Below are positions 25,480 to 40,105 of a stretch of DNA of 47,070 bases, piece by piece. This DNA comes from Candidatus Tagabacteria bacterium (lineage in GTDB: Bacteria; Patescibacteriota; Minisyncoccia; GCA-002779875): the NCBI GenBank assembly GCA_963820595.1, contig CAWGAO010000007.1, forward strand, positions 1-47,070. The letters are read 5' to 3'. The notes beneath the pieces are model-generated. The model did not search any database, was not told the DNA's origin, and saw nothing but the letters and a program-made list of their open reading frames with translations. The position numbers were made by a program, and so were the translations under genes. Every line of letters starts with the position of its first letter. The stretch's first letter is position 1.

Positions 25480-26851
25480 CTAACGCTCCTTAATTTTCAT
25501 AATTTCTGTTCCTATATTAGTATCTTTAACTATCCAGCCTTTTTTTTCAAGTTCTTCGCGGATGGCGTCGGCTTCTTCCCACTTTTTTTCTTCGCGAAAT
25601 CGTTTCCGTTTCTCGGCTAGAGTCCTTATTTCGGCAGGAATTGAAAAAGATTCGATTTTCCCCAATCCTAAACCCAGAATCCTGTCGAATTTTAAGATAA
25701 GTTTTTGTTTTTCCATTGTATTAATCGCTGAATGTCTGACGGTTTCCCAAATAATTGATAGCGCTTGAGGCATATTTAGGTCGTCATTCGCAGCTTTTAA
25801 AAATTTTCCTTCCAGTTGGCGCGAGAGCAGGGGATTAGGTTTGGTTTTTTTGTTTTCAATTTTAATATTTGGGATGGCTTGTTTCAGATTATTCAGTGCG
25901 TGCTCCGCCGCTTCCAGCGATTTCCAGGTGAAATTCAATTGCGAACGGTAGTGACTTGTGAGAATAAGATAACGGAAGGCGAGGGGATTGAATCCTCGCT
26001 TTTCGATTTCGTTTAAAGTGTAAAAATTTCCGAGCGATTTCGACATCTTTTTGCCGTCAACCAGAAGATGCTCGCCTTCTATCCAAAAGTTTACGAATTT
26101 TTTTCCTGTGGCGGCTTCCGACTGGGCAATTTCATTTTCGTGGTGAGGAAAAATCAAGTCCACCGCGCCCGCGTGAATGTCAAAACTTTTTCCCAAATAC
26201 TTCATGCTTATTGCCGAGCATTCGATGTGCCAGCCCGGCCGGCCAGGCCCGAAAGGGGAGGGCCAAGACGGTTCATTCGGCTTTGTCGATTTCCACAGCG
26301 CGAAATCAGCTGCTTGCCGTTTGCCGTAACTCGTCAGAACTTATGCGCGCTCCGTTTTTAATCTTACGCTGTTCTAATTGCGAAAGTCGGCCATAATTTT
26401 TGAATTTCGAAATATCGAAATAAATTGAGCCGTCATTTCCTTTATAAGCATACCCTTTTTCTAAAAGCACGTTTATTAATCGGATAATTTCTTTAATTGT
26501 TTCTGTCGCTTTTGGATATGCGGTTGCTTTTTCAACGTTGAGATTTTTTAAATCATGAAAGAAAATTTTAATAAGCGGTTCGGTGATTTCTTTAATGGGT
26601 TTATTTTCCCTTTGCATTTTTTTAATGATTTTATCATCGACATCGGTGATGTTCATTATATGTTTTACTTTGTATCCGTTATAAATCAAAACTCGCTTTA
26701 GAATGTCTTCAAAAATATAGGTGCGCAGATTTCCTATGTGAGCTGTGTCGTAAACGGTCGGGCCGCAGGTGTAAATACCCACTTTTTTATCGTGAAGCGG
26801 TTTGAAAATTTCTTTTTTGCGGGTAAGAGTGTTGTAAATTTTTATTTCCAT
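25480..26851 (-). CDS. cysS: Cysteinyl-tRNA synthetase (frameshift near 26310)
   Basis: CGPTVYDTAHIGN, NITDVDDKI, DLIFPHHENE, KMSKSLGN. Confidence 0.94.
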
Positions 26852-28386: not shown

Positions 28387-28506
28387 CCCGTTAGAAGCCG
28401 CGGTCGCGTAGTGTAAATATATATACCATTAATATGAAAGAAAAATGTTTAAATTATCAACGATATAATTATTTGCAGGTGCCGACCGCGACCTGCTTCT
28501 AACGGG
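28387..28506 (+). mobile_element. Miniature inverted-repeat element abutting the rplI start codon
   Basis: CCCGTTAGAAGC...GCTTCTAACGGG|ATG; highly similar to the reverse complement of 44395-44512. Confidence 0.85.
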
Positions 28507-28953
28507 ATGAGGATTATTTTATTACAAGATGTGCCGGGAATCGGCAAAAAATGGGAAACAAAAGAAGCAAAGGGCGGATACGCGCGGAATTTTCTATTAG
28601 CCCGGAAGTTGGCTGTTTTGGCAACTCCGGCATCATTGAAAGACGCCGAATTAAAAAAGGCGCAGGAATTTAAGAAGAGGCTTGTTCAGGAAGATTTATT
28701 CGAGAAATTACTTGAATCGCTGAAGGACGCCGTATTTGTTGTCGAAAGAAAAGTGAACGAAAAAGGACACCTGTTTGACGGATTTGATGTCAAAGAAATC
28801 GCCGGGCTCCTTGAAGAAAAATTGAAGGGCAAAATTCCTCTTGAGTATATCAAGCTTGAAAAACCCATCAAAGAGATAGGCAAACACGAAATAACGGTCC
28901 AAAAAGGAGACCGTAAAGCAACTTTCCAACTTGAGGTTAAGCCTGAAGAATAA
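28507..28953 (+). CDS. rplI: 50S ribosomal protein L9
   Basis: MRIILLQDVPGIG, GYARNFLL, PIKEIG. Confidence 0.95.
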   Translation: MRIILLQDVPGIGKKWETKEAKGGYARNFLLARKLAVLATPASLKDAELKKAQEFKKRLVQEDLFEKLLESLKDAVFVVERKVNEKGHLFDGFDVKEIAGLLEEKLKGKIPLEYIKLEKPIKEIGKHEITVQKGDRKATFQLEVKPEE

Positions 28954-28956
28954 GTT

Positions 28957-29229
28957 TTATTCCACGCTGACTAAGGGCAAAGTTTTCTTTTTTCCGTCAA
29001 AGTTTGTTTTTCGTTTTGTGGAAAATTTAACAATTCCGCTGGCAATAGAATAAAGCGTGTCATCTCTGCCTTGGCAAACGTTTTTACCGGCGAGTATTTT
29101 TGTTCCCCGCTGGCGCACCAGGATGGAGCCGGGTTTCGCCGGTTGGCCCGCGAAAAGCTTCACTCCTAAAAATTTAGGTTGTGAATCCCGAACATTTCTA
29201 GTTGTGCCTCCAGATTTAGTATGTGCCAT
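28957..29229 (-). CDS. rpmA: 50S ribosomal protein L27
   Basis: [26 protein letters not shown]. Confidence 0.96.
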
Positions 29230-29340
29230 AATTTCTAAATTTTAGAATAAAATTTGTGAAATTATGAGCACCCCGCCATCGGCGGGGTAGCCATAAGTTT
29301 CCAAAGATTTGAGCATCCCGCCGAAGGCGGGATAGCCATG
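29225..29340 (-). repeat. Tandem hairpin repeats upstream of and overlapping the rpmA start
   Basis: Two copies of GAGCA(C/T)CCCGCC-N4/N3-GGCGGG(G/A)TAGCCAT, plus a long AT-rich stem that includes the rpmA ATG. Confidence 0.7.
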
Positions 29341-29350
29341 AATTTACAAT

Positions 29351-29779
29351 ATGTCTAATTTATCAGACGAAATTAAAAAAGTCAACCCATTCGACAAGCT
29401 CAGGGTTGTTAAGGCAAAAATAAAGCCTTTTGAGAGCGATTTAGTCATTATAATAGTCATTATTTTGGTTGCCTTAATTAGTTTTGGTTTAGGGCAGGCT
29501 TTCGAGCTTGAGAGAAAATAAAACGCCAATCACTATTGAAAATATCGAAAATAACAGTTTCAGCGTGTCCGAAGCGGGGAATAGTAGCTTCAAGCACTGC
29601 CAAAATAATAGCACAAGGAGAAAAAATGCTCGTGGCCAGTAAGAATGGTGCCAAATATTATTATCCCGTGGTGTTCCGGTGCTTCGCGCATCAAAGAAGA
29701 AAACAAAGTTTGGTTTTCTTCAATCGAAGAAGCTGAAAAAGCCGGCTACACCCCGGCTGCCAACTGCAAAGGCCTGTGA
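29351..29779 (+). CDS. Membrane-anchored protein with C-terminal Ada metal-binding-like domain (frameshifted)
   Basis: TM helix, then VASKNGAKYYYP + WCSGASRIKEENKVWFSSIEEAEKAGYTPAANCKGL across frames. Confidence 0.75.
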
Positions 29780-29819
29780 AATTTTCTTTTCAGCTAAACC
29801 TAGTTTAGGTCAATCGGAG

Positions 29820-29875
29820 TTGACTTTTTTAATCATTCTTGATACAATGTAGCCAAACAAAATTTGGTTATTTTG
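29820..29875 (+). promoter_or_regulatory. Repeated cassette promoter, copy 1
   Basis: TTGACT-17 nt-TACAAT plus conserved GTAGCCAAACAAAATTTGGT. Confidence 0.8.
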
Positions 29876-29922
29876 ACATCAAAAAATCTATTTTTGGAAG
29901 GAGTGGGGAAATGTCAAATTGA

Positions 29923-30129
29923 TTGAAAGCAATTTTTATCACTATCATTTGTGGTCTTTTGGCGCTTGGTGGGGTATGGGTAATTGAGCCGAGTAAAGAT
30001 GCTGTAGTTGTTTGGGCAATTTTCTTTTCGGTATGCATGTTGGGTTATGAAGGTTTGATTCTTCGCCGTTTATACAAAGAAAAGGAAGTCGAGGATATCC
30101 GGAATGGGAACAGACCTATTGAACCTTAA
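29923..30129 (+). CDS. Small two-TM hypothetical protein
   Basis: Two hydrophobic helices; the SD and ATG at 29911 are followed by an in-frame TGA, so the start is uncertain. Confidence 0.5.
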   Translation: MKAIFITIICGLLALGGVWVIEPSKDAVVVWAIFFSVCMLGYEGLILRRLYKEKEVEDIRNGNRPIEP

Positions 30130-30201
30130 TCATTCCAACCATCGGCAACAAAACAGAAATTGGTTGTTTTGAAAATCTCAAAGAGAGGGAGGAGAAAAGA
30201 G

Positions 30202-30519
30202 ATGATAGTTATGACTGTTCAGGGTGTTTCAGATTCGTATGGCAAAAGAAGGTTGTTAAAATTGTGTTCCACGTTGTGCGGATTGGTGCAGGGGGAGTTG
30301 TATATTCGTTGCGGAGTACGCAGGGTTTCGGCTTTCTTTCCCCCCGATCTTCTGCAAGGAGGATTGGGTGAAGAAATCATCGCTACGGTGGAAAATTTCA
30401 CCGGGCGTACGATTTGTCTCGAGCCTTATCTTCGAGAGAGGATTGAGGGGTTAATAAAAGACAAAATCGCATGGTATTTCCCCGATGCAAAGTTCATTGG
30501 CGCCAAAGTGAATTTTTAA
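30202..30519 (+). CDS. Hypothetical protein
   Basis: GGGAGG SD upstream of ATG 30202; VSAFFPPDLLQGGLGEEII. Confidence 0.6.
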   Translation: MIVMTVQGVSDSYGKRRLLKLCSTLCGLVQGELYIRCGVRRVSAFFPPDLLQGGLGEEIIATVENFTGRTICLEPYLRERIEGLIKDKIAWYFPDAKFIGAKVNF

Positions 30520-30584
30520 AATCGCACGAATCCCACGATTAAAAGCGGATCGCGGCCAAAAGCCACATAAAATGTGGCAGGCCA

Positions 30585-30610
30585 ACATCCGCTTTTTTGT
30601 TTTCCTCGGG
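30585..30610. repeat. Direct repeat, copy 1 (ACATCCRCTTTTTTGTTTTCCTCGGG)
   Basis: 25/26 identical to 31115-31140. Confidence 0.9.
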
Positions 30611-30628
30611 CTAGAAAAATCTGCGATA

Positions 30629-30685
30629 TTGACTTTTTTAATCATTCTTAGTATAATGTAATCAGATAAAATTTGGTGGTTTTTT
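30629..30685 (+). promoter_or_regulatory. Repeated cassette promoter, copy 2
   Basis: TTGACT-17 nt-TATAAT with the same spacer and leader as 29820 and 33665. Confidence 0.8.
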
Positions 30686-30715
30686 GACACCAAAATCCGC
30701 AAAAAGGGGGATATT

Positions 30716-31031
30716 ATGAAAAAATTTGTTGCTCTTTTAGTGATTACCAGTTTCCTTTCGTTGACTTTGACGGGATGCGCAGGTGAGACAAATCCTGTGG
30801 ACAAAAACGGGAAACCAAGGTTCGTGCGAATCTCAAAAAGAGGGGGCGATAGGAGGCGTATGTGCGGGAGTCGCTTACTACTTCGGGGTAAACTTGACCA
30901 TCGTGAGGATTGGTTGGGTGGTTGCAGTCTTGTGCGGGGTTGGGATTATATCCTATGTAGTATGTTGGGTTGCAGTGCCCGATGCGACCTATGTTCCTAA
31001 AGATTATCACGAAAGGGCAGGGAGAGAATAA
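30716..31031 (+). CDS. PspC-domain protein with N-terminal lipoprotein-like signal (frameshift near 30838)
   Basis: MKKFVALL...LTGC lipobox, then GAIGGVCAGVAYYFGVNLTIVRI...YVVCWVAVP (PspC signature). Confidence 0.78.
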
Positions 31032-31067
31032 AAGGGTAAATCAAAAAGATAAATTTTTTTGTATATT

Positions 31068-31093
31068 AAGCCACTGGCACTGTCAGTGGCTTT
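31068..31093 (+). terminator. Intrinsic terminator
   Basis: AAGCCACTGGCA-C-TGTCAGTGGCTT followed by a T-rich tail. Confidence 0.7.
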
Positions 31094-31114
31094 CTGTTTT
31101 AAAGCCAAAAACCG

Positions 31115-31140
31115 ACATCCACTTTTTTGTTTTCCTCGGG
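31115..31140. repeat. Direct repeat, copy 2
   Basis: Matches 30585-30610. Confidence 0.9.
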
Positions 31141-31380
31141 AAAGTATGATTTTTAACGGCTCAACCCATTCGACTAGCGCTCAGGGTGAGCCGTTGATTT
31201 TAGGCGTAAAAAATGATTGAAATTACTGTTTTGAGTTTATCCACAGGGAAGTACTTGTAAAGTTTCTCTGTTTTTGTAATATAGTGGATATTGGATAATA
31301 TATAGTCGTATTTTAGCCCATAAAATAAAGCTAAATTAATATAGCGTTATCCAAAAATATTATTAAATTACACACTTTTT

Positions 31381-31611
31381 ATGGTGAATGAAAAAGTACA
31401 ACAGGAGACCAACAGACTGCTTAAAGTAGTAATTGGTCTACTTGTGAGAAATAAGCAAGATAATATTGTTACATTGAGGGATCAGATTAGTGTTCTAAAA
31501 AGTTTAGGGCTAACACCTTCTGATATAGCGGGGATTTTAGGTCGATCGGGTAATTATGTGAATAAAGAATTATCCGAACTTAAGAAAATTAATAAAAACA
31601 AAAAATCGTAA
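31381..31611 (+). CDS. Small HTH protein 1
   Basis: LKSLGLTPSDIAGILGRSGNYVNKELSELK, an HTH pattern. Confidence 0.7.
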   Translation: MVNEKVQQETNRLLKVVIGLLVRNKQDNIVTLRDQISVLKSLGLTPSDIAGILGRSGNYVNKELSELKKINKNKKS

Positions 31612-31615
31612 AATT

Positions 31616-31798
31616 ATGCAAAAAAAATTAAAGCCATCCGATAATTTAGAAGATATTGAAAGAGATAGATTTATTTTAGAACTCGCATTGGCTGGAGTTT
31701 CGCAAGTAAAAATCAGAGAAATAGTAGGCGTGGATATATATCGAGTAAGTCGTATTGTTAAAAACATTAATCCTAATCAACATGGTAAAAATAAGTAA
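31616..31798 (+). CDS. Small HTH protein 2
   Basis: LALAGVSQVKIREIVGVDIYRVSRIVK. Confidence 0.65.
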   Translation: MQKKLKPSDNLEDIERDRFILELALAGVSQVKIREIVGVDIYRVSRIVKNINPNQHGKNK

Positions 31799-31967
31799 TA
31801 AGCATCCTCTTGATAAAAAGTTAGATCGAGCTATTTATTTACTCGAATCTCTTCTTGCCCTAGAATTAAATAAAACTAATCTCGATCGCAATAAGATTCG
31901 CGCACATTTAGGCATTGAAAAGGCCAAAGTTAATAAAATACTCGAAGGTATTAAAAAATCGCATTAA
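31782..31967 (+). CDS. Small HTH protein 3
   Basis: LNKTNLDRNKIRAHLGIEKAKVNKILEGIKK; ATG at 31782. Confidence 0.65.
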   Translation: MVKISNKHPLDKKLDRAIYLLESLLALELNKTNLDRNKIRAHLGIEKAKVNKILEGIKKSH

Positions 31968-31991
31968 AAGTAAAAATAAAAAAATAATTCC

Positions 31992-32225
31992 ATGGCGAAG
32001 AAAAAAGATAATAAACAGTCATCATTAAAAAGAAAAACAAAATTGATTGGCGATGATCGTATTATCGATCTTTTAGAACGTATTGGCGTGTCAAACCTTT
32101 ATTTAAACACCGATCTAGGGCAAAACAGTGTCGCAAAAATACTCGGAATGGATAATAACCGAGCCAATGAAATTTTGAAAGGTATTAAAAAGACGATACA
32201 AAAGAACAACAATGGAAAACGTTGA
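31992..32225 (+). CDS. Small HTH protein 4
   Basis: TDLGQNSVAKILGMDNNRANEILKGIKK. Confidence 0.65.
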   Translation: MAKKKDNKQSSLKRKTKLIGDDRIIDLLERIGVSNLYLNTDLGQNSVAKILGMDNNRANEILKGIKKTIQKNNNGKR

Positions 32226-32994
32226 AATTTTGAAAGAGAATTGCAAAGAGTATGCCAAAACCAAAAAAAGTATTGAGGTATTAAGAAAAGCAAATGGAAA
32301 AAGCCACTATACCGAGATTGCCAAAATAGTAGGGATACACAATACAGCAGTTAGTGGTTTGCTTAAAAAAGCTGAAAAACTGGGATTAGCTAAAAGAGTA
32401 AAGGTCGGAGTCTATAAAAAAATTCCCGGTATTTTAGGCTATATGCCTCCCAAAAGAAAAATCAAAGGTAATTCTTATAAAACTATACAGGATATAATTC
32501 AAAAAATTAGCAAAAACCGTAAAATAAAGAGTAAGCCTCTGCCTTTTTCTGGCCTCGCCATTCCAAACAAAACAGAGGTAAATCTGGGTAAAATGGCGAA
32601 TGCATATCAAGCTTTGTACGCCGTAGAAAATACTTTAAGAGAATTAATTAGGAAAGTGCTAAATCAGAAAGTTGATTGGTGGAAAAATTGTATTCCTAGT
32701 GGCATACAGGTGGAAGTTGAGGATACTATCAAAAAAACCCCCTATCATGCAGTGGAAAGAAATGATGAGCTTGAATACACTCATCTAGGGCAACTTAAAG
32801 AAATCATTATTTATAAGGAAAATTGGAACGATTTTTTGCCATATCTTAATGAGAAGGATAAGAATTCTTTCGCAGCAACGATAAACAAGGCGATTCCATC
32901 TCGCAATGCCATCGGTCATTGTATTCCACTTAAATTAAAAGACTTGAAAGTTGTGGATGTAAGATTTGAGGATATCTTAAGAATGATAAAATAA
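32212..32994 (+). CDS. Winged-HTH fused to a Swt1-like HEPN domain (putative RNase)
   Basis: N-terminal HYTEIAKIVGIHNTAVSGLLKKAEKLGL; C-terminal YAVENTLRELI, DWW, YTHLGQLKEII, NW and RNAIGH (RxxxxH). Confidence 0.75.
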   Translation: MENVEILKENCKEYAKTKKSIEVLRKANGKSHYTEIAKIVGIHNTAVSGLLKKAEKLGLAKRVKVGVYKKIPGILGYMPPKRKIKGNSYKTIQDIIQKISKNRKIKSKPLPFSGLAIPNKTEVNLGKMANAYQALYAVENTLRELIRKVLNQKVDWWKNCIPSGIQVEVEDTIKKTPYHAVERNDELEYTHLGQLKEIIIYKENWNDFLPYLNEKDKNSFAATINKAIPSRNAIGHCIPLKLKDLKVVDVRFEDILRMIK

Positions 32995-33117
32995 GATAAA
33001 AATTCTAATTAAGAAAAATAATAATCACTAATCTAAAATTACTAGTACAAGAGGTGATGTGGCGGAAAGAAAATAATTTATGCCTTGGCCAAACAAAAAA
33101 TTAGGCGCAGTAAATTT

Positions 33118-33521
33118 ATGGATAAAGATTTATTTAAAAAATTGAAAGAATTGAATTTGCCTTGTGGCAAGTATGCGGTTTTTGGGAGCGGGCCGATATG
33201 TGCGAGGGGCTAAGAAAATCCCGGGACTTGGATGTTATTGTTGCAGAAGATGTTTTTGATGATTATAAAGATATGCCCGGGTGGAAGATAAAAGAATTTC
33301 GCGCCGGAGAATTCTATTTAGACAAAAACGATATTGAACTTTGGAAAGATTGGGGTCCGGGCGAATGGGATATCCAAAAATTGATAAATGAAGCCGAAAT
33401 TATTGATGGTTTGCCCTTTGTAAAATTGAAAGAAGTTTTGAAGTGGAAAAAAATGATTGGCAGAGATAAGGACATTAAAGACATTAAAATTATAGAAACC
33501 TATCTAGCCGACAAAAATTAG
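33118..33521 (+). CDS. Small nucleotidyltransferase-fold protein (frameshift in G-run near 33208)
   Basis: YAVFGSGPICARG + LRKSRDLDVIV (GS...DxD motif), GRDKDIKDI. Confidence 0.6.
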
Positions 33522-33527
33522 GCGAAT

Positions 33528-33596
33528 CCTCCTTCGTATAAAAGCTACCCTCCTTCGCCCTATGGGCTACGGGCGGGCACAGCGGACGGGCGCGGG
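33528..33596. repeat. Nested REP-like hairpin elements (CCTCCTTCG...GCTAC)
   Basis: CCTCCTTCG occurs twice, with one unit inside the other; GC-rich. Confidence 0.55.
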
Positions 33597-33641
33597 AAAT
33601 TTATAATAGAACTAAGAGCACTATTTTTAATTGGGAAAATC

Positions 33642-33659
33642 ATCGTCCGTCACAGCGAG
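33642..33659. repeat. att-like repeat, partial copy A (ATCGTCCGTCACAGCGAG)
   Basis: Matches the core of copies B-D. Confidence 0.7.
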
Positions 33660-33664
33660 CCCTA

Positions 33665-33720
33665 TTGACTTTTTAAATCATTCTTGGTATAATGTAGCCA
33701 AATAAAATTTGGTGGTTTTT
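33665..33720 (+). promoter_or_regulatory. Repeated cassette promoter, copy 3
   Basis: TTGACT-17 nt-TATAAT-GTAGCCAAATAAAATTTGGTGGTTTTT. Confidence 0.8.
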
Positions 33721-33762
33721 GTCTATTTTGAACCTTGTAAAATACGGAGAAAGGGAGGATTT

Positions 33763-33987
33763 ATGGCAAAAAGAAAAGCGAGAAAAGATTTGAAAGCAAT
33801 ATTGCCGTGCATTGAGTGCGGCAAAGGATTGGAGATGAACGTTTTTGAAGTTCCTCTGCCGTATCGTAAAAAAATAAGTTCTGGTTACGGCGCAGGTAAG
33901 GATTGGGGGTTAAAGGAAGTTAAATGTGGTTCCTGTGGCACTCGGCAGGAAATAATGCTTCAGGCAATCGCCACGAAAATTTCTTGA
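33763..33987 (+). CDS. Small zinc-ribbon protein
   Basis: CIEC...CGSC; GGGAGG SD before ATG 33763. Confidence 0.7.
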   Translation: MAKRKARKDLKAILPCIECGKGLEMNVFEVPLPYRKKISSGYGAGKDWGLKEVKCGSCGTRQEIMLQAIATKIS

Positions 33988-34006
33988 AAAAGGAGGCGTT
34001 AAGACG

Positions 34007-34360
34007 ATGATACATGATGATCCCCGAATGGTAATTTTTGAAGAAAAGGAATGCTGCGCTCTGCGCTTAGCATTCAAAAAAAACCGCACCGCAATCAATG
34101 ACTTCTTGAAAGATTTTGTACCGACCAGAATAATCGAACTTTGCGGAAATATTTTGAACCGTACGCAAAAACTGGGTTGGGTGCCCGAAGTAGAGGATCA
34201 CAAGATGGTTTATCGGGAAATAGCCGGAATGGAAATTAGGCGCCTGGAAAAAGAGGTTTTGAAAGATCGCAAACTTAACTGTTGTTGCAAGGCAAAGGCG
34301 CACATCGAGGCCTTACAAAAAGTGATTAAAATGACGGGCGGCACCTCCGTAGTAAACTAA
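34007..34360 (+). CDS. Hypothetical Cys-containing helical protein
   Basis: AGGAGG SD; follows the zinc-ribbon gene; terminator at 34361-34394. Confidence 0.65.
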   Translation: MIHDDPRMVIFEEKECCALRLAFKKNRTAINDFLKDFVPTRIIELCGNILNRTQKLGWVPEVEDHKMVYREIAGMEIRRLEKEVLKDRKLNCCCKAKAHIEALQKVIKMTGGTSVVN

Positions 34361-34395
34361 AAAGCCGCTGGGACAACCCAGTGGCTTTCTTTTTG

Positions 34396-34518
34396 TGCAA
34401 AACTAAAGACTTCATTCAATTCTTTTTTGATTGTAACCCAACCTGCCTGCCGGCAGGCAGGTCCAGAGTTCCCTCGGCCGCGGCCTACGGGCAGGTGAAA
34501 ATCGTCCGCTACAGCGAG
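34396..34518. repeat. att-like repeat, copy B (with two hairpin insertions)
   Basis: Aligns with copy C after removing 34442-34461 and 34472-34495. Confidence 0.8.
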
Positions 34519-34519
34519 T

Positions 34520-34548
34520 TTGACAAACAACACGTCTTATGCTATCTT
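34520..34548 (+). promoter_or_regulatory. Promoter of the graspetide cassette
   Basis: TTGACA-17 nt-TATCTT with extended TG. Confidence 0.65.
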
Positions 34549-34597
34549 TGTTTTGGAGTGAAATTTGACAAAAAAGAGAAAAGAAAGGGGGAGAGAA

Positions 34598-34762
34598 ATG
34601 GATAAATGCACAGCGAAAATGCTAGATATAAAAGAAGCATCTAATCAGCAACCTGTTGCTGAATTGCCTTTTATTCTAGGCTTCCTGGAGCATCGTGACG
34701 GCGCCATGGCTGGCACTACCAGCGGCATATGGACCGATATCGATTGCTTCGATTGGACGTAA
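34598..34762 (+). CDS. Graspetide (omega-ester RiPP) precursor peptide, 54 aa
   Basis: Leader motif PFILGFLE resembles microviridin PFFARFL; core TTSGIWTDIDCFDWT; directly upstream of the ATP-grasp ligase. Confidence 0.8.
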   Translation: MDKCTAKMLDIKEASNQQPVAELPFILGFLEHRDGAMAGTTSGIWTDIDCFDWT

Positions 34763-34838
34763 TTGATGACATAGGAAAGATGATATAAATCATCCTTCCT
34801 AATCCTTGCAATTAATAAGAAGAAAGGAGGTGACGCTC

Positions 34839-35801
34839 ATGATATTGGCTATAGGGAATTCTGGTTCTTACGAAGTTTCCGCGTTTAACGTAGTTTTGGC
34901 TGAGTTGAAAAAAGCAGGACAAGATGCCGTTTTATTCAAACAGGATAAATGCCTTGATGGCGAATATCTGGTATTTGAAACAGTTAACGGGGAAATAAAC
35001 TATCGAGTCATCGTCGACGGAATAGATTATGACATTGAAGACTTTTCTGCAATTTGGTATATGAAGCCGCATCTGCCTGTTGAACTGATACAGTTTGAAC
35101 CGGCAGAATATCGGCAATTTATCCAGAGACAATTTGGAGCGATGAGAACGGCTCTATGGTCCGTTTTCCAGCACAAGAAATGGATTGACGATCCTTGGGC
35201 AATTGAGAAGGCGGAGAATAAGATATACCAACTTGCCATGGCTAGAAAAGCGGGTTTGGTATTTCCGGATACGCTGGCAACATCTGATCCCGAGAAAGTT
35301 AAAGCATTTTACAAAAAGCACGGCGGCAATATTATCGTCAAACTGCTCGGCGCCAGTCCTATGATGAATAAAGTCTTATACACAAACATAGTGACCCCTG
35401 AGCATTTGGCAAATATCGACACGGTTAAAATGTCCCCTTCAATATTCCAAGTTCATGTCCCAAAAGCATACGAACTAAGGATCACCATTGTTGGCGAGGA
35501 AATTTTCCCGGCCAGAATCAATTCGCAAGGAGACGAATTAATCAGTTTGGATTGGCGGAGAAAGCCTAAGCTAAATGACTTCGACGTTAAAATGGAGCGG
35601 ACATCCCTTCCTATAAATATTGAGGGAAGCCTGCGACGTTTTATGAAAATGCTTGGCTTGCGCTTCGGATGCATCGACATGATCGTCACCCCTGATGGTG
35701 ATTATGTATTTTTGGAAATTAATCCCAGTGGGCAGTGGTACTTTGTGCAACTTCACACGGAAGCGGAAATTTCCAAAGCTTTGGCTAGACTATTACTCTA
35801 G
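34839..35801 (+). CDS. ATP-grasp peptide maturase (MvdC/MvdD-like)
   Basis: AENKIYQLAMA, FPDTLATSDP, IFQVHVPKAYELRITIVG, DWR, GCIDMIVT, FLEINPSGQW; AAGGAGG SD. Confidence 0.9.
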   Translation: MILAIGNSGSYEVSAFNVVLAELKKAGQDAVLFKQDKCLDGEYLVFETVNGEINYRVIVDGIDYDIEDFSAIWYMKPHLPVELIQFEPAEYRQFIQRQFGAMRTALWSVFQHKKWIDDPWAIEKAENKIYQLAMARKAGLVFPDTLATSDPEKVKAFYKKHGGNIIVKLLGASPMMNKVLYTNIVTPEHLANIDTVKMSPSIFQVHVPKAYELRITIVGEEIFPARINSQGDELISLDWRRKPKLNDFDVKMERTSLPINIEGSLRRFMKMLGLRFGCIDMIVTPDGDYVFLEINPSGQWYFVQLHTEAEISKALARLLL

Positions 35802-35806
35802 CGTCT

Positions 35807-35845
35807 AAAAGAGGGAAAGATCTCAGATCCGTACCTCTTTTTATT
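35807..35845 (+). terminator. Probable intrinsic terminator
   Basis: AAAAGAGG...CCTCTTTT stem followed by a T-run. Confidence 0.55.
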
Positions 35846-35882
35846 TTTATTTTTCTAATTTTTAATGTAATATTATGATTAT

Positions 35883-36455
35883 ATGAAATCGAAATTGAAT
35901 CAAAAATTAATGAAAGAAATCAAGGAAATGTTCGACATCGATCAGGGATTAAGAAATGCATGGGCAAATAAAAAATTAACCGAACCACTTATTAACTGGG
36001 GCGAAGACGGCAAAAAGCGAAAACCCAAGACTAAAATGGAATTAGGACTGATCAATTATTTAGTTTATCTTGTTGACGCCGCGCACAACGCTAGAATTCA
36101 TCGAATTATCAATCAATATGGTTATCCAACCTCAAAACTTATCGGCAAAAAGGGAATTTTTTATTTTTTTCTTTTAGTTCAGCACCAAGATTATGATCTG
36201 GAATTGCAAAAAAATTGTCTCGAACGCTGCGATTTTGCGAAAAAAGAGCAAGCCTATTTGACCGACAGGATTCTTCTTCGCGAAGAGAAGAAGCAACTGT
36301 ACGGCACTCAGTTTCAAAGGGACCTCAAACATAACAGAATTATTTCTCAGCCGATAGAGGATATAAAAAACGTTAATGCGAGGAGAAAAAAAATAGGGCT
36401 TCGGCCGCTTAAAGAAGAGTTAGCGGTGATGAATAAAAAGTTTTACAGCAAATAG
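35883..36455 (+). CDS. DUF6624-like protein
   Basis: DQGLR, YGYP, LLVQH, AYLTDR, QLYGTQF, VNARRKKIGL. Confidence 0.75.
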   Translation: MKSKLNQKLMKEIKEMFDIDQGLRNAWANKKLTEPLINWGEDGKKRKPKTKMELGLINYLVYLVDAAHNARIHRIINQYGYPTSKLIGKKGIFYFFLLVQHQDYDLELQKNCLERCDFAKKEQAYLTDRILLREEKKQLYGTQFQRDLKHNRIISQPIEDIKNVNARRKKIGLRPLKEELAVMNKKFYSK

Positions 36456-36490
36456 ATATATAAAGGAATTTAGCAGGTGTTTCGAAATAA

Positions 36491-36532
36491 AAATATAAAA
36501 GGGCGACCAATTTTAGTCGCCCTTTTATATTT
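36491..36532. terminator. Bidirectional-type terminator
   Basis: AAATATAAAAGGGCGAC...GTCGCCCTTTTATATTT. Confidence 0.75.
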
Positions 36533-36612
36533 CATGCAACCGCCGGAATCATTTCTAATTCTTTCTTTATTGTAATCCAATTCAGGGTTCGAAAATCGTC
36601 CGCCCCAGCGAG
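36532..36612 (-). repeat. att-like repeat, copy C (uninterrupted)
   Basis: Minus strand reads LAGADDFRTLNWITIKKELEMIPAVA*. Confidence 0.8.
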
Positions 36613-36613
36613 T

Positions 36614-36642
36614 TTGACAAATTAACCGAGAGATGATATCTT
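36614..36642 (+). promoter_or_regulatory. Cassette promoter
   Basis: TTGACA-17 nt-TATCTT with extended TG, same layout as 34520. Confidence 0.65.
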
Positions 36643-36732
36643 CAGAAAGTTCGTTGATAACAGAATAATTGGCGCGAAGAAGAGAAGTAAGAGAAGTAAA
36701 CCCACAAACAGTCCAAAAAAAAGGAGGAGAAG

Positions 36733-37464
36733 ATGAAGAGAATGAAAAAGACAGGAATGTTTTTGGCGGTGGTTGTGGTTTTAATGATGTTGGTCGTTAA
36801 TGTTTTGGCTCAAACGGCGGGCCAGCGTGTGTCCGCGATTGAGCGCGATATTAGCGCATTAGAAACCGAAAAAATAGGGATGAGGTCTGAACAGGTGGCC
36901 CTTAATGCCACGAAACAACGGTTGGATTCTATTATTAAGTTCCACAATGAAAATGTGAGGATATTTGACCAGAATGTCGAGCAACTAGAGGCGGATTTCG
37001 CAACATATAAAAGCGAAAATGATCAATTGAATGCCGAGATAAGGCAACACAATTCATGGAAGCCCAATCCGAGAGATAAAGGTGAAGTTGATTCTTATAA
37101 TGCCGAAGCGAGTCAGCAAAATAGCCGGAGAGCAAATTTTTCCGCAACTTATGCCAAGCTTCAAAGGCGACTTGATGATCAAGAGTTTGTGAATAAAAGT
37201 TTAACTAATAGCGAAAAGAAAATTGATGATATGGAGACGGCTTGGGCGACCAAACAGGAAAATTTAAATAATAGAAAGATCGAGTTCAAAGCAAAGTTAG
37301 CCGCCCTAAAAAGGCAATATGTTGATACCTGTCGGGAACTGTTAGAAAATCCAAAGACAAAAATGGAGGCCTTAAGACTTAAATGTGGAAATGTCCAATT
37401 TGACGGGGCAGACCCTAATCTTCCAACCTTAGAAGACCTGGGAATTCATACGCCTTATGATTAG
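36733..37464 (+). CDS. Secreted coiled-coil hypothetical protein
   Basis: Signal peptide ending VLA|Q, long heptad region, two C-terminal Cys; AAGGAGG SD. Confidence 0.75.
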   Translation: MKRMKKTGMFLAVVVVLMMLVVNVLAQTAGQRVSAIERDISALETEKIGMRSEQVALNATKQRLDSIIKFHNENVRIFDQNVEQLEADFATYKSENDQLNAEIRQHNSWKPNPRDKGEVDSYNAEASQQNSRRANFSATYAKLQRRLDDQEFVNKSLTNSEKKIDDMETAWATKQENLNNRKIEFKAKLAALKRQYVDTCRELLENPKTKMEALRLKCGNVQFDGADPNLPTLEDLGIHTPYD

Positions 37465-37517
37465 GCAAAATAATCCTAACTTAGCTCTTAAAGAAAGAAA
37501 GTGATAGAAGAAGCATA

Positions 37518-37549
37518 AGGCCGCATGCGATGTAATACATGCGGCTTTT
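37518..37549 (+). terminator. Intrinsic terminator
   Basis: AGGCCGCATG...CATGCGGCTT followed by TT. Confidence 0.65.
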
Positions 37550-37557
37550 ATTATTTT

Positions 37558-37642
37558 TACGCAAAACCAAAAATCATTCCCAATCAAGAGTTCCCTCGGC
37601 CGCGGGGCCTACGGGCAGGCGAAAATCGTCCACCAAAGCGAG
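37558..37642. repeat. att-like repeat, copy D (with hairpin insertion)
   Basis: CCAATCAAGAGTTC[insert 37594-37619]CGAAAATCGTCCACCAAAGCGAG. Confidence 0.8.
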
Positions 37643-37695
37643 CAAGTTCCGATGTTTATTTCTTATTTTTATTAAATACTTAAATGATGACAAGA

Positions 37696-37902
37696 TTATT
37701 TTCTGATTGCCTTAACTATGACTCCAATTAACCCGACTATCGTTAATATTGCTCCTAACACTGCGACAAATAGCCACATAGCTTGATTGGTTCCGTACAA
37801 AAATGAAACTATTGGCTTGTTATTATTCATTGCCCCGGCTAAAAACCCACAAATTATTCCAATAAGAAGAATAATTATTCCAATCCAAAGAATTTTTTTC
37901 AT
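37696..37902 (-). CDS. Small two-TM membrane protein
   Basis: Two hydrophobic helices. Confidence 0.6.
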   Translation of the reverse strand: MKKILWIGIIILLIGIICGFLAGAMNNNKPIVSFLYGTNQAMWLFVAVLGAILTIVGLIGVIVKAIRK

Positions 37903-37947
37903 TTTTAAAATCTATTTATTTAAGTGTCGACCTTTATCGGAGATTTA

Positions 37948-39042
37948 TTATACTCCGGTTTTTTTCTTTAATTTCGAGGCTTTGAGAGTAGGGAATTGCT
38001 TTTTTGTGGTTACTTCGTCCCATTTGCCCATTTCTTCCAATATTTCCTTGATTTTTTTCATGTCATAAACAAGCCGTTCCTGCAGGGCTTTGGTGAGATA
38101 GCCGTTTTCGCCGAAAACCCTGTCCACGCTTTCCTGTTTCATAAACTGGTATATAAGGGCCTGTATTTCGGCGATGCGTTTGTTGTTTTCCTGGTTTTTA
38201 TTTTTAAGTTCGAAATATTCCCTCACGGCCGAATTTATTTCTTCCTGGCTTTTCGGCTCGGATTTTTTCAAGTAGAAATGCTTGAACATCGGGCACATCG
38301 GCTTATATCCGCACCAGCCGCAGAGGGCGGTAGGGTAGGGGGGAAAGTCTTTTTTCTCGAGCCGGCCTTTGATTTCGCGTATCAACCCTATGACGAAAAT
38401 TTTCGTTTTTTCCAAATCTTCCTGCGAGCGGCTCGTGGTTATTTTCTCCCCGTGTTTCAGAAAATACAAACTTAATTTTATATTTCCTGGTTTGACGTGT
38501 GGCCAGCGTCGGGAAATGCCGAGATGATAAATCGACATCTGGAGATCCTTGTCGAGGTTTTCCTGCGACGGCATCCGTTTCGATGTCTTGTAATCGATTA
38601 TCTCAAAAGTTTCTTTTTCCTGGTTTTTGTCGATGCGGTCGATGATGCCCGCGAGAATGTGCTGTTCGCCGGTTTCCGGGTCGGGAATTAAAACTTCGAA
38701 TCTCGATTCAAGATCGACTACGTCGAAATTCCACGGCTGATTTTTCTTGTAAAATTTTTTCAGGATTTCTATGCCTTCTTCATGATGTGCTTTTTCCTCG
38801 TCCGCTTGGGGCTTAAGGTTGGCAACTTTATTGTCCTGCCATTGATTTTGGAAATGATCTATAACCTGGTCTACGGTGGGGTAGAGAGGACTCCGCTCAA
38901 ACATAAATTTGAGGCAGGAATGGATAATACTGCCGAATATGGCCTCGAAGCCCTTTGGAACCCTTATCCTGTCGATTTCCTGAAATTTAAATCTCAGAGG
39001 GCATTGCTGGTATGTCGTTAAAGCCGAATAAGACGTGCGCAT
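37948..39042 (-). CDS. PD-(D/E)XK nuclease, RecB/AddB C-terminal-like, with four Cys (possible Fe-S cluster)
   Basis: SYSALTTYQQCP, GSIIH, GIIDRID, EIIDYKT, QMSIY, LCGWCGYKPMC. Confidence 0.88.
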   Translation of the reverse strand: MRTSYSALTTYQQCPLRFKFQEIDRIRVPKGFEAIFGSIIHSCLKFMFERSPLYPTVDQVIDHFQNQWQDNKVANLKPQADEEKAHHEEGIEILKKFYKKNQPWNFDVVDLESRFEVLIPDPETGEQHILAGIIDRIDKNQEKETFEIIDYKTSKRMPSQENLDKDLQMSIYHLGISRRWPHVKPGNIKLSLYFLKHGEKITTSRSQEDLEKTKIFVIGLIREIKGRLEKKDFPPYPTALCGWCGYKPMCPMFKHFYLKKSEPKSQEEINSAVREYFELKNKNQENNKRIAEIQALIYQFMKQESVDRVFGENGYLTKALQERLVYDMKKIKEILEEMGKWDEVTTKKQFPTLKASKLKKKTGV

Positions 39043-39134
39043 ATATCGAGATTTTAACTTAGAAAAAATTTTTTATCCACAATATTTATTTTGTCGCCTT
39101 GATATTTTGTGCGACATTTGATATTATAAAAAAT

Positions 39135-39710
39135 ATGACAACGAATAAGTTAGACCAAAATTTGCCTTCCGGAGATTATATTACTGGATTTGTGGATGGA
39201 GAAGGTTGTTTTGCTTTAACTTTCAGAAGAGATATAAGACATGAACGAAAAGGAAAGCCTGTTTATTATAGTTGGAAGGTTTTATTTGCTATAGTATTAC
39301 GGAGAGATGATTATGAATTATTAGAAAAGATATCATTAGTTTTAGATTGTGGTGCTATTAGTTTTACTGAACCAAGAGGGAATTTTGATGGGGGAGTCAG
39401 ATATCAAGTATCAAATATAGACGACCTTAAAGAAAAAATTATCCCCTTTTTTTGTAAATATGAATTACATGGCAAGAAAAAATATGATTTCAATTTATGG
39501 GCTAAAGCAGTAGATATTCTTGGAAAATACAAATCAAAAAGAGGAAAAGTGAATATAGTAAAAGGTAAACGAGGGTTTACGAAGGTTGAATGGGAAGAAA
39601 AAGATTTACAAAAACTTTCAGAAATTAAAAATGAAATGTCCGTCTATAAAAGCAAAAAGCCCGTTCCTAAATGGTTTAATGAGTTATCTAAGGTCGGCAG
39701 GGAACTATAA
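39135..39710 (+). CDS. Single-motif LAGLIDADG homing endonuclease family protein
   Basis: YITGFVDGEGCF, IIPFF, LHGKKKYDFNLW. Confidence 0.9.
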   Translation: MTTNKLDQNLPSGDYITGFVDGEGCFALTFRRDIRHERKGKPVYYSWKVLFAIVLRRDDYELLEKISLVLDCGAISFTEPRGNFDGGVRYQVSNIDDLKEKIIPFFCKYELHGKKKYDFNLWAKAVDILGKYKSKRGKVNIVKGKRGFTKVEWEEKDLQKLSEIKNEMSVYKSKKPVPKWFNELSKVGREL

Positions 39711-39781
39711 ATTTAGCAAGATTTTCCAAGATATAGAGGTTCGCACAATAATGGTTTTGCGACCCTAGGGCTTTATTGGCT

Positions 39782-40105
39782 TTAGGGTGCTGGTGCAGGT
39801 GCTGTTTGGTTCATTTGCGGCTGGCCCTCCAAGATTGTCGGTGTTTTCCCTTCTTTTATCCGGCTGGCATTCTGTACGAATGATTGCCACAGGAGATTAT
39901 AAAAGATATTCCACAAATACTGCGCCGGCCCGGCTAGATATCTATTCCAGACAGTCTGAATTGTCTGCCGTGCGAAGGAAAGGTTGTCCTGAACACCCTG
40001 TTTTTGAAAAACGGACGTAAGACTGATACCAAAAAAACCCAAGACAATAATGGCTATAATTAAAAGGATAACGAATCCTATTAAACCAAGACCTTGATTT
40101 GTCAT
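39782..40105 (-). CDS. Hypothetical membrane protein
   Basis: MTNQGLGLIGFVILLIIAIIVLGFFGISL..., WNRYLAGPA. Confidence 0.65.
   Translation of the reverse strand: MTNQGLGLIGFVILLIIAIIVLGFFGISLTSVFQKQGVQDNLSFARQTIQTVWNRYLAGPAQYLWNIFYNLLWQSFVQNASRIKEGKTPTILEGQPQMNQTAPAPAP

What the first reader, a model, noticed from the sequence alone, without database searches (positions are those of the whole stretch)
33642..37642. Integron-like cassette array delimited by repeated att-like sites that read LAxxDDFRTLxW on the minus strand
Seen: four diverged direct copies of a site with core ATCGTCCRYNNNAGCGAG, at 33642, ~34501, ~36595 and ~37625. Three unrelated, self-contained units lie between them: a zinc-ribbon gene pair, a graspetide cluster with a DUF6624-like gene, and a secreted coiled-coil gene. 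Each unit has its -35 box 1-5 nt after GCGAG, a strong SD and a terminator just before the next site. On the minus strand, after removing small hairpin insertions, copies B-D read LAVADDFRTLDWVTIKKELNEVFSFA, LAGADDFRTLNWITIKKELEMIPAVA* and LALVDDFRTLDWE. These look like orphan 3' tails of one gene family that have diverged while keeping the peptide motif. No integrase is present in the window. Inference: cassettes were added serially by a trans-acting site-specific recombinase whose att site lies within a gene 3' end, possibly the recombinase's own. The GGTTCGAA in copy C resembles a tRNA T-loop. This would be a gene-capture platform without canonical attC sites.
Basis: partly seen in the sequence, partly recalled or inferred. 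Interest (0 to 1): 0.88.

Follow-up and report, generated by a model that had tools for sequence, protein, structure and literature searches.

The report
Recombinase att-site scars bounding gene cassettes
Four diverged repeats in this small bacterial genome are leftover halves of the attachment site, which also encodes the last 26 residues, of a tRNA-targeting serine recombinase, and they mark where small accessory gene cassettes were stacked into a variable island.

Summary
ATCGTCCRYNNNAGCGAG occurs four times on the + strand (33642, 34501, 36595, 37625), against 0.01 expected, and nowhere else in the 570-kb assembly. The copies separate three promoter-gene-terminator units.

The minus-strand peptide is not from an unknown gene. 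It is the extreme C-terminus (consensus WLPLLDxFRTLDWxxIKKELE) of a family of large serine recombinases (LSRs) common in this class. Their reading frame runs across their own attachment site. In 20 of 30 LSR loci the frame runs into an antisense tRNA gene, which is the integrated form. In others it continues as this tail.

The tail is therefore the far arm (P') of attP. Its T-loop-like TTCNGAAC motif sits 5 bp further from the crossover (CTC) than the tRNA T-loop. This matches the published attP/attB half-site rule.

Orphan tails are scars at the far ends of integrated elements. They occur in about 10% of class genomes, and similar LSR-less arrays occur in five other genomes.

Relatives lack the whole 8.2-kb island. 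The window holds no recombinase and the island no tRNA gene, and three of the four sites are damaged.

The site is indeed the recombinase's own 3' end, but capture in trans is not shown.

The parts
29778..37952 (.). Accessory island that contains the array. It lies between the stop of the PD-(D/E)XK nuclease gene and the conserved region upstream of rpmA.
   Evidence: the relative L075 (core proteins 59-84% identical) joins the equivalent of window 37953 to 29777. The near relative L078 (92% nt identity) joins 37953 to 30121; synteny is conserved on both sides. GC falls to 0.31-0.34 at 31-33.5 kb.
33627..33659 (-). Copy A. A truncated tail / P' arm that reads LAVTDDDFPN*. It lacks the GAAC motif.
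   Evidence: A GC-rich stretch related to the B/D hairpin lies at about 33550-33600.
33665..34388 (+). Unit 1: promoter-like site 33665-33693, a 74-aa Cys-rich gene (33763-33987), a 117-aa gene (34007-34360) and a terminator-like hairpin (34361-34388).
   Evidence: Neither gene has a Pfam or NCBIfam family above cut-off.
34357..34518 (-). Copy B. A tail interrupted by hairpin 34471-34496, which sits inside the TTC|GAAC motif, and by the 20-nt palindrome 34442-34461.
   Evidence: (D4).
34520..36532 (+). Unit 2: promoter-like site 34520-34548, graspetide-type precursor (34598-34762), ATP-grasp maturase (34839-35801), DUF6624 gene (35883-36455) and hairpin 36491-36532.
   Evidence: ATP-grasp followed by a DUF6624 gene recurs in L080, L081 and L082, with a precursor-like ORF matched only in L081. 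None of these has a tail nearby.
36532..36612 (-). Copy C. The only intact tail / P' arm: LAGADDFRTLNWITIKKELEMIPAVA plus stop. GAAC starts 22 nt after the C of CTC.
   Evidence: (51.5 bits).
36614..37545 (+). Unit 3: promoter-like site 36614-36642, a 243-aa gene with an N-terminal hydrophobic segment and coiled-coil-like matches (36733-37464), and a terminator-like hairpin (37520-37545).
37574..37642 (-). Copy D. A tail interrupted by hairpin 37593-37620 at the same spot as in B. It carries a 7-codon deletion after TGG and reads LALVDDFR..TLDWE*.
   Evidence: D4. No promoter-like site follows it.
37696..37902 (-). 68-aa membrane-like gene between copy D and the island's right edge. It belongs to the island but not to a tail-bounded unit.
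   Evidence: (no family).

Best explanation
Each repeat is the recombinase-distal arm (P') of the attP site of a large serine recombinase (LSR) family. This arm also encodes the enzyme's last ~26 residues.

Shown in relatives:
- The LSR reading frame crosses its own att site.
- In the integrated state it runs into the antisense 3' end of a tRNA gene (Asn, Gln, His, Lys, Leu, Ser).
- In tandem elements it continues as the tail.
- Orphan tails sit at the far end of elements, pointing inwards. Cargo genes converge on them.

Inferred:
- The crossover lies in the CTC that starts every window copy.
- The window's array is a stack of four such far-end scars. They were produced by serial LSR-mediated insertion of small units (tail, terminator, cargo and the cargo's own promoter) at one crossover point. 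This resembles staphylococcal composite SCC/psiSCC islands.
- The recombinase gene is no longer present or never travelled with these units.
- The array is now largely fossil. Only copy C keeps an intact P' arm.
For: 1. The tail belongs to LSRs.
- A profile of 22 tails found 237 proteins at E<=1e-3. The best 150 are 28-251 aa, and the match lies in the C-terminal part of all but P0020 and P0144.
- At least 8 of the 21 fetched carry the LSR C-terminal region just upstream of the tail.
- P0046 retrieves 18 full-length LSRs with PF00239+PF07508 (17 also with PF13408). P0151 and P0152 end in the tail. Eight read on as antisense tRNA (..DSNxQP..). Five stop within 4 codons after the conserved L.

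2. tRNA targeting. 20 of 30 LSR loci have an antisense tRNA overlapping the end of the frame.

3. Position of the crossover.
- The related LSRs L061 and L062 are identical through CCCATCTGGCTCC. They then diverge into tRNA-Asn and into the tail respectively.
- All four window copies, and 117 of 146 database orphans, begin their conservation at that L codon.

4. Half-site rule. GAAC starts 17 nt after the C of CTC in all 11 tRNA junctions and 22 nt after it in the tails. This is the 5-bp outward shift of the ZD motif in attP relative to attB (PMC3783163, passages).

5. Tandem elements occur.
- G293: LSR-A with a tail, then 10 kb, then LSR-B abutting tRNA-His.
- G375: the same layout at tRNA-Asn.

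6. LSR-less tail arrays holding 1-gene cassettes occur in 5 of 19 other genomes whose tail loci were fetched. Their cargo is diverse.

7. Two other orphan tails of this genome lie 1.3 and 2.3 kb upstream of antisense tRNA-His and tRNA-Asn.

8. The island is absent from relatives.

9. B and C differ by 4 synonymous and 3 conservative changes in their first 19 codons. This reading indicates divergence while the sequence was still coding.
Against: - No LSR remnant lies in the window, and no tRNA or tRNA fragment at the island. The empty site in relatives has no att-like feature.
- The only LSR of the assembly (on C6) lacks the tail.
- Canonical serine integrases do not recombine attP with attR or attL (PMC3783163 abstract). 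Stacking therefore requires relaxed site choice.
- The sequence on the other side of the crossover in the array is a cargo promoter, not an LSR-type P arm.
- B and D share a near-identical hairpin found nowhere else in the genome. B and C share 79% identity over 52 nt reaching into the promoter. This points to local duplication or gene conversion for part of the pattern.
- Relatives show only whole-island differences.
- Homologous graspetide clusters elsewhere have no tails (0 of 28 loci, apart from one 8.5-bit partial).
Confidence: 0.6

Rival explanations
1. Decay of complete elements. Four full LSR elements, each with backbone and recombinase gene, were integrated in tandem. Ordinary deletions, local duplication and gene conversion later removed the recombinase genes and most of the cargo. 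Tails and a few genes were left behind. No recombinase-less cassette was ever mobile.
For: - A graded series of 5'-truncated LSR genes still attached to tails exists: the 111-aa fragment in L074, the 99-aa frame in L037, P0046/P0110/P0104 at 124-140 aa, and P0002 and P0020 with nested tails.
- Intact tandem elements are about 10 kb long, with 1-2 antisense cargo genes next to the tail.
- B/D share a hairpin and B/C share a promoter.
- 3 of 4 copies are damaged.
Against: - All four window copies end at the same nucleotide (|CTCGCT).
- 117 of 146 database orphans begin their conservation at that L codon. By eye only about 15 of 148 show LSR-like sequence upstream.
- Random deletions should not stop at the crossover repeatedly.
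- tblastn found no LSR remnant in the window.
Confidence: 0.22
2. The repeat is kept for a function of its own between cassettes. It could act as a bidirectional terminator/insulator plus an upstream promoter element, or as a binding site of a regulator. On this view its peptide-like reading is only historical.
For: - The tail always lies between a terminator hairpin and the next -35 box.
- In 12 of 23 tail sites in other genomes, both neighbouring genes lie on the opposite strand, with the tail in the intergenic spacer.
Against: - Copies A, B and D are disrupted at different places, yet their units look intact.
- D has no promoter after it.
- Conservation across genomes follows codons: Thr uses all four ACN codons, Arg uses AGA or CGA, and Leu uses six codons.
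- The same sequence forms the in-frame end of full-length LSRs.
Confidence: 0.08
3. A classical integron: an IntI tyrosine recombinase with attC-bounded cassettes.
For: Only the general layout fits: short promoter- or terminator-bounded units separated by a repeated site.
Against: - No tyrosine recombinase was found in the assembly, which is 56% complete.
- The repeat is a coding tail of a serine recombinase, not an imperfect palindrome of attC type.
- Cassettes here carry their own promoters.
Confidence: 0.02

Closest known systems
Staphylococcal SCCmec / psiSCC composite islands moved by the CcrAB/CcrC large serine recombinases
   Same: Large serine recombinase. Integration at the 3' end of a conserved gene. 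Tandem accretion of elements separated by repeated copies of the integration-site sequence. Members without a recombinase gene. The assembly's own LSR scores best against the NCBIfam CcrB model (E 1.6e-36, far below the cut-off).
   Different: The target here is a tRNA 3' end rather than rlmH. The repeated scar is the recombinase's own C-terminal coding sequence. The units are only 0.9-2 kb and carry their own promoter. This array has no recombinase gene or target gene beside it.
SSV-type 'suicidal' tyrosine integrases of archaea (PMC7253208; only the start of the abstract was seen, in the listing)
   Same: The recombination site lies inside the recombinase's own reading frame. Integration into the host genome therefore splits the gene and leaves its fragments at the two ends of the element.
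   Different: Those are tyrosine recombinases of archaeal viruses and plasmids. Here the enzyme is a bacterial serine recombinase, and only its last ~26 residues are exchanged.
Tycheposons and tRNA-linked genomic islands of Prochlorococcus (bioRxiv 10.1101/2020.12.28.424599; passages read)
   Same: Serial integration at the same tRNA pushes older elements further into the island. Degenerate remnants and repeated att fragments are scattered through the islands. A minority of those elements (27 of 937) carry a large serine recombinase.
   Different: Most tycheposons use tyrosine recombinases, and their scars are partial tRNA copies. Here the scar is a recombinase tail, and the island studied is not at a tRNA.
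A118/LI-type serine integrase att-site architecture (PMC3783163; passages read)
   Same: A distal recognition motif lies 5 bp further from the crossover in attP than in attB. Here GAAC starts 22 nt after the C of CTC in tails and 17 nt after it in tRNA junctions.
   Different: No dyad-symmetric partner motif was recognised in the P arm. Binding was not tested. The stacking seen here requires site pairings that canonical integrases avoid.
Integrons (IntI, attI, attC; recalled)
   Same: An array of small, unrelated gene units separated by a repeated recombination site.
   Different: A different recombinase class. No attC structure. The units have their own promoters. No platform gene lies beside the array.

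Membership tests
P' arm of a large-serine-recombinase attP site (far-end scar of an integrated element) | The sequence is continuous, in frame, with the 3' end of LSR genes in other genomes | tested here: met
   P0151, P0152, L062, L071 LSR-A, L073 LSR-A and the L074 fragment.
P' arm of a large-serine-recombinase attP site (far-end scar of an integrated element) | attP-like and attB-derived junctions share a short core, then diverge | tested here: met
   L061 and L062 share ...TGGCTCC. G293 LSR-A and tRNA-His share TGGGGT. The window copies begin at CTC.
P' arm of a large-serine-recombinase attP site (far-end scar of an integrated element) | The distal recognition motif lies 5 bp further out in attP than in attB | tested here: met
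   GAAC starts 22 nt after the C of CTC in tails and 17 nt after it in 11 of 11 tRNA junctions. The rule comes from PMC3783163.
P' arm of a large-serine-recombinase attP site (far-end scar of an integrated element) | The recombinase binds and recombines the site | not testable with these tools
   This needs a recombination assay.
SCC-like composite island | A recombinase gene of the family is in or beside the array, and the target gene lies at one end | tested here: not met
   No LSR in the window. No tRNA at the island.
SCC-like composite island | Units are bounded by repeated integration-site sequence, and some units lack a recombinase | tested here: met
   Other arrays.
Integron | IntI-type tyrosine recombinase | tested here: not met
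   PF00589 gave 0 matches in the assembly, which is 56% complete.
Integron | attC sites (imperfect palindromes with R/L boxes) | not tested
   IntegronFinder was not available. The repeat reads as a coding tail.
SSV-type self-splitting integrase | The att site lies inside the recombinase reading frame | tested here: met
   This was shown for relatives' LSRs, not for a gene in this window.
SSV-type self-splitting integrase | Tyrosine recombinase fold | tested here: not met
   The Pfam domains are PF00239, PF07508 and PF13408.

The most novel reading that the evidence does not exclude
These candidate-phyla-type bacteria carry a serine-recombinase counterpart of an integron.

The LSR would recognise mainly the tail (P') arm and the tRNA (B') arm, and would tolerate almost any sequence on the other side of the crossover. 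Recombinase-less circles made of tail, terminator, gene and promoter could then be captured in trans and stacked one after another.

In addition, exchanging the enzyme's last ~26 residues on integration would act as a built-in switch of its activity or directionality.
Probability: 0.2. Interest if true: 0.85.

Novelty: new variant of a known kind. Interest (0 to 1): 0.62.

Why it matters
- It explains a widespread class of tiny 'hypothetical proteins' as att-site scars: 237 clusters at E<=1e-3 in 1.84 billion representatives.
- It gives a sequence tag for mapping the ends of integrated elements and accessory cassettes in small-genome uncultured bacteria, whose mobile elements are poorly known.
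- It points to a bacterial serine-recombinase family whose reading frame spans its own attachment site and which targets tRNA 3' ends. Natural attP/attB pairs can be read directly from genomes, which is useful for recombinase tool discovery.
- If recombinase-less cassettes prove mobile, this would be a new gene-capture route.

Tried and rejected
Attempts that led nowhere:
- The DNA of 33400-38000 was searched in 40 relatives. Only the 20-nt palindrome and short chance-level pieces matched. No syntenic array was found.
- tRNA scans around 23 tail loci showed no constant tRNA right next to orphan tails.
I used the exhaustive representative search and then P0046 with 'longer'.
- tblastn of 11 LSRs and LSR fragments against the window gave no LSR body remnant. 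Only the tails matched.
- An Rfam E-value search of 28500-40000 found no tRNA fragment. All hits were sub-threshold matches, mostly over the terminator hairpins.
- I looked for a second internal att-like motif in the divergent regions of the intact elements L071 and L073 and found nothing convincing.
- No dyad partner of the TTCNGAAC motif was recognised in P arms, judging by eye.
- ATP-grasp homologues in 28 other loci (96,746 nt) had no tail nearby except one 8.5-bit partial. The cargo-tail link is therefore not conserved.
- Sequencing runs: one run (X1) held 0.05 of the words. Laying it gave two 151-nt contigs identical to 34504-34654 and 34700-34850 and one 35-nt piece at 39593-39627, with no joints. 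This says nothing about circles or variants.
- Literature searches listed no paper describing LSRs of these bacteria or tail scars. This covers only the held library. Supplements were not opened.
- The empty site in relatives shows no att-like sequence.
- Considered and rejected: a DGR template repeat (the copies are too diverged and no RT is present), a MITE burst (the copies are only about 60-80% alike), and a 3' exon of a split gene (there is no upstream exon, and + strand genes occupy the space).


Full report
**Observation**

The pattern ATCGTCCRYNNNAGCGAG occurs four times in the window, all on the + strand, at 33642, 34501, 36595 and 37625. Shuffles gave 0.01 expected, and 0 of 100 reached four. 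The strict motif occurs nowhere else in the 570,527-bp, 10-contig assembly that holds the window as C7:1-47070.

On the minus strand:
- Copy C reads without interruption as LAGADDFRTLNWITIKKELEMIPAVA*.
- Copies B and D give the same reading only after removing GC-rich insertions: B 34471-34496 plus the palindrome 34442-34461, and D 37593-37620.
- Copy A is truncated to LAVTDDDFPN*.

**What the tail is**

A six-frame search of 401 genomes of the class with copy C's 26 residues found matches at E<=1 in 40 genomes. Nearly all lay in open frames of 20-100 aa. The consensus is WLPLLDxFRTLDWxxIKKELE.

Conservation follows codons. Thr uses ACT, ACC, ACA and ACG. Arg uses AGA or CGA. Leu uses six codons. 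The sequence therefore evolved as coding sequence.

A profile of 22 tails was run against 1.84 billion representative proteins. It gave 237 hits at E<=1e-3. The best 150 are 28-251 aa, and the match lies in the C-terminal part of all but P0020 and P0144.

At least 8 of the 21 hits I fetched carry the C-terminal region of large serine recombinases just upstream of the tail (...EIFESSExxEKRQLLNYLLQNxxLxGKKLxFxLxxPF...).

P0046 retrieved 18 full-length LSRs of 487-571 aa, all with PF00239 and PF07508 and 17 also with PF13408. Their C-termini fall into these groups:
- 2 end in the tail (P0151, P0152).
- 2 end in diverged versions of it (P0155, P0167).
- 8 read on as ..(W)LRxxDSNxQP.., the antisense translation of a tRNA 3' half.
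- 5 stop within 4 codons after the conserved L.
- 1 is different.

**The recombinase frame crosses its own att site**

LSRs of this kind occur in 186 of 401 class genomes. In 20 of the 30 best loci an antisense tRNA gene (Asn, Gln, His, Lys, Leu or Ser) overlaps or abuts the end of the LSR frame. One locus (L062) ends in the tail. Two (L053, L055) end in a DxVRT variant by eye. Two run off their contigs.

The related LSRs of L061 and L062 are identical through CCCATCTGGCTCC. One then continues as tRNA-Asn antisense and the other as the tail. In G293, LSR-A (tail-bearing) and tRNA-His share TGGGGT before diverging.

On the other side, the four window copies lose similarity exactly before CTCGCT. 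Among 148 database orphans, conservation starts at that Leu codon: L in 117 of 146 and P at the next position in 114 of 146. The preceding codon is W in 38, M in 33, L in 28 and R in 15.

Together these observations bracket the crossover to the CTC. This is an inference, not an experiment.

**Half-site architecture**

GAAC of the T-loop (antisense GATTCGAACC) starts 17 nt after the C of CTC in all 11 tRNA junctions printed. In the tails, including window copy C, GAAC of TTYNGAAC starts 22 nt after it.

Rutherford et al. 2013 (PMC3783163; passages read) show that the zinc-ribbon-domain motif lies at positions 16-24 of an attP half-site. The same motif lies 5 bp closer to the centre in attB.

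The tail is therefore best read as the P' half-site, with the tRNA acceptor/T-arm as B'. It further explains why the DxFRTLDW stretch is so conserved: it is both a DNA site and a peptide.

**Where orphan tails come from**

In intact tandem elements the order is tail -> , 1-2 converging cargo genes, about 8-10 kb of backbone, then LSR -> | tRNA.
- G293:C4 has LSR-A fused in frame to a tail, then 10 kb, then LSR-B abutting tRNA-His.
- G375:C3 shows the same layout at tRNA-Asn, with a further tail 13 kb upstream.

New elements thus enter at an already occupied tRNA, and the older recombinase acquires the newcomer's tail. Orphan tails are then the far-end junctions.

In this genome two further orphans lie 1.3 kb and 2.3 kb upstream of antisense tRNA-His (C8) and tRNA-Asn (C7). 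In 12 of 23 tail sites in other genomes both neighbouring genes lie on the opposite strand.

A graded series of 5'-truncated LSR genes still attached to tails also exists: 111 aa in L074, 99 aa in L037, and P0002/P0020 with nested tails.

**The array in the window**

In tail orientation the array reads D, coiled-coil-like gene, C, graspetide cluster, B, Cys-rich gene pair, A. A is followed by further + strand accessory genes: a 119-aa gene that looked nucleotidyltransferase-like to me by eye (no family match), HTH-HEPN, and four small paralogous genes that look HTH-like by eye.

Each junction is 'promoter of the previous unit | CTCGCT tail', with no LSR-type sequence on the promoter side. tblastn found no LSR remnant in the window.

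Similar LSR-less arrays of one-gene units occur in 5 of the 19 other genomes whose tail loci I held: G308, G086, G120, G299 and G225. Their cargo includes an ABC ATPase with two ABC_tran domains, and NYN, DUF218 and cyclopropane-fatty-acid-synthase genes.

The ATP-grasp and DUF6624 genes recur together in three other genomes without tails, and a precursor-like ORF precedes them in L081. The cargo is thus a coherent module that here happens to be tail-bounded.

**The array is accessory and mostly dead**

A relative with 59-84% identical core proteins (L075/L076) has the PD-(D/E)XK gene directly beside the rpmA upstream region. Window 29778-37952 is therefore an 8.2-kb insertion. A near relative (L078, 92% nt identity) joins 37953 to 30121.

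No tRNA or tRNA fragment lies at the island, and the empty site shows nothing att-like.

Copies B and D carry a hairpin exactly between TTY and GAAC, inside the presumed recognition motif. Copy A lacks GAAC. Only copy C is intact.

A hairpin beginning ACCTGCCCG sits at the same position in a tail of another genome (L019), and related hairpins are dispersed in this genome.

**Open points against a simple capture model**

- The B and D hairpins are nearly identical and unique to these two copies. B and C share 79% identity over 52 nt running into the promoter. Local duplication or gene conversion has therefore shaped part of the array.
- Canonical serine integrases recombine only attP with attB (PMC3783163). 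The tandem structures seen in G293 and G375 already require relaxed pairing. I recall such relaxed pairing being reported for staphylococcal Ccr recombinases, but did not read this here.
- The only LSR of the assembly (on C6) lacks the tail. The genome is only 56% complete.

**Verdict**

The repeats are att-site and C-terminal scars of a tRNA-targeting LSR family; I put this at about 0.9. They delimit units that were most likely stacked by serial site-specific insertion; I put this at about 0.6, with decay of complete elements as the main rival.

I found no description of this in the held literature. The closest known systems are:
- SCC/psiSCC composite islands (recalled).
- Archaeal SSV-type self-splitting integrases (PMC7253208; start of the abstract seen in the listing).
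- Tycheposon islands (passages).

Noticed in passing
window 34442-34461, and 13 other places in the assembly (C5 x4, C6 x1, C7 x5 more, C8 x3): The 20-nt perfect palindrome CCTGCCTGCCGGCAGGCAGG is a dispersed repeat: 14 loci with up to 3 mismatches. It is often embedded in a longer GC-rich repeat. It also matched in several other genomes of the class.
   Followed up: partly
window 34471-34496 and 37593-37620; L019 around 1465-1505; G000 C2:7101 and C8:63699: Small GC-rich hairpins beginning ACCTGCCCG sit at the same spot (between TTY and GAAC) in three tails from two genomes. Related hairpins are dispersed in this genome. This may be a miniature element with a preference for the TTCGAA-like site.
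   Followed up: partly
window 29820-29874, 30627-30684, 33663-33720; L078 1153-1209: A 55-58-nt promoter plus 5'-leader module (TTGAC..TATAAT..AAAATTTGGTGGTTTTT) is repeated at 88-91% identity in front of different small genes. It also occurs in the near relative's island.
   Followed up: partly
window 39099-39710 (+): A free-standing LAGLIDADG homing-endonuclease gene (PF00961, 76 bits). The syntenic relative L075/L076 has no matching ORF at this position.
   Followed up: partly
window 31381-32994 (+): Four small tandem paralogous genes that look HTH-like by eye (not scanned against any family library). They are followed by a 260-aa protein with weak HTH_28 and Swt1-like HEPN matches, both below Pfam cut-offs. 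GC is only 0.31-0.34 here.
   Followed up: no
window 30716-31031 (+): A lipoprotein-like start and what looks by eye like a PspC-type membrane segment lie in two overlapping frames. This suggests a frameshift or a sequencing error.
   Followed up: no
window 25480-26851 (-): The cysteinyl-tRNA-synthetase-like gene appears as two ORFs (241 and 181 aa) separated by about 100 nt. The relative L075 has one 486-aa ORF.
   Followed up: no
G000 C6:39433-40782 (L039 898-2247): The only LSR of the assembly ends 5 residues after ...KKITL, without a tail or a tRNA. Two converging genes follow it directly. It looks 3'-truncated compared with relatives.
   Followed up: partly
P0002 and P0020 (database proteins): Single called ORFs contain a tail followed in frame by an LSR 3' fragment and a second tail or tail-like end. 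This indicates nested or abutting element remnants.
   Followed up: no
window 30582-30610 and 31112-31140: A 29-nt direct repeat (93% identity) flanks the PspC-like gene.
   Followed up: no
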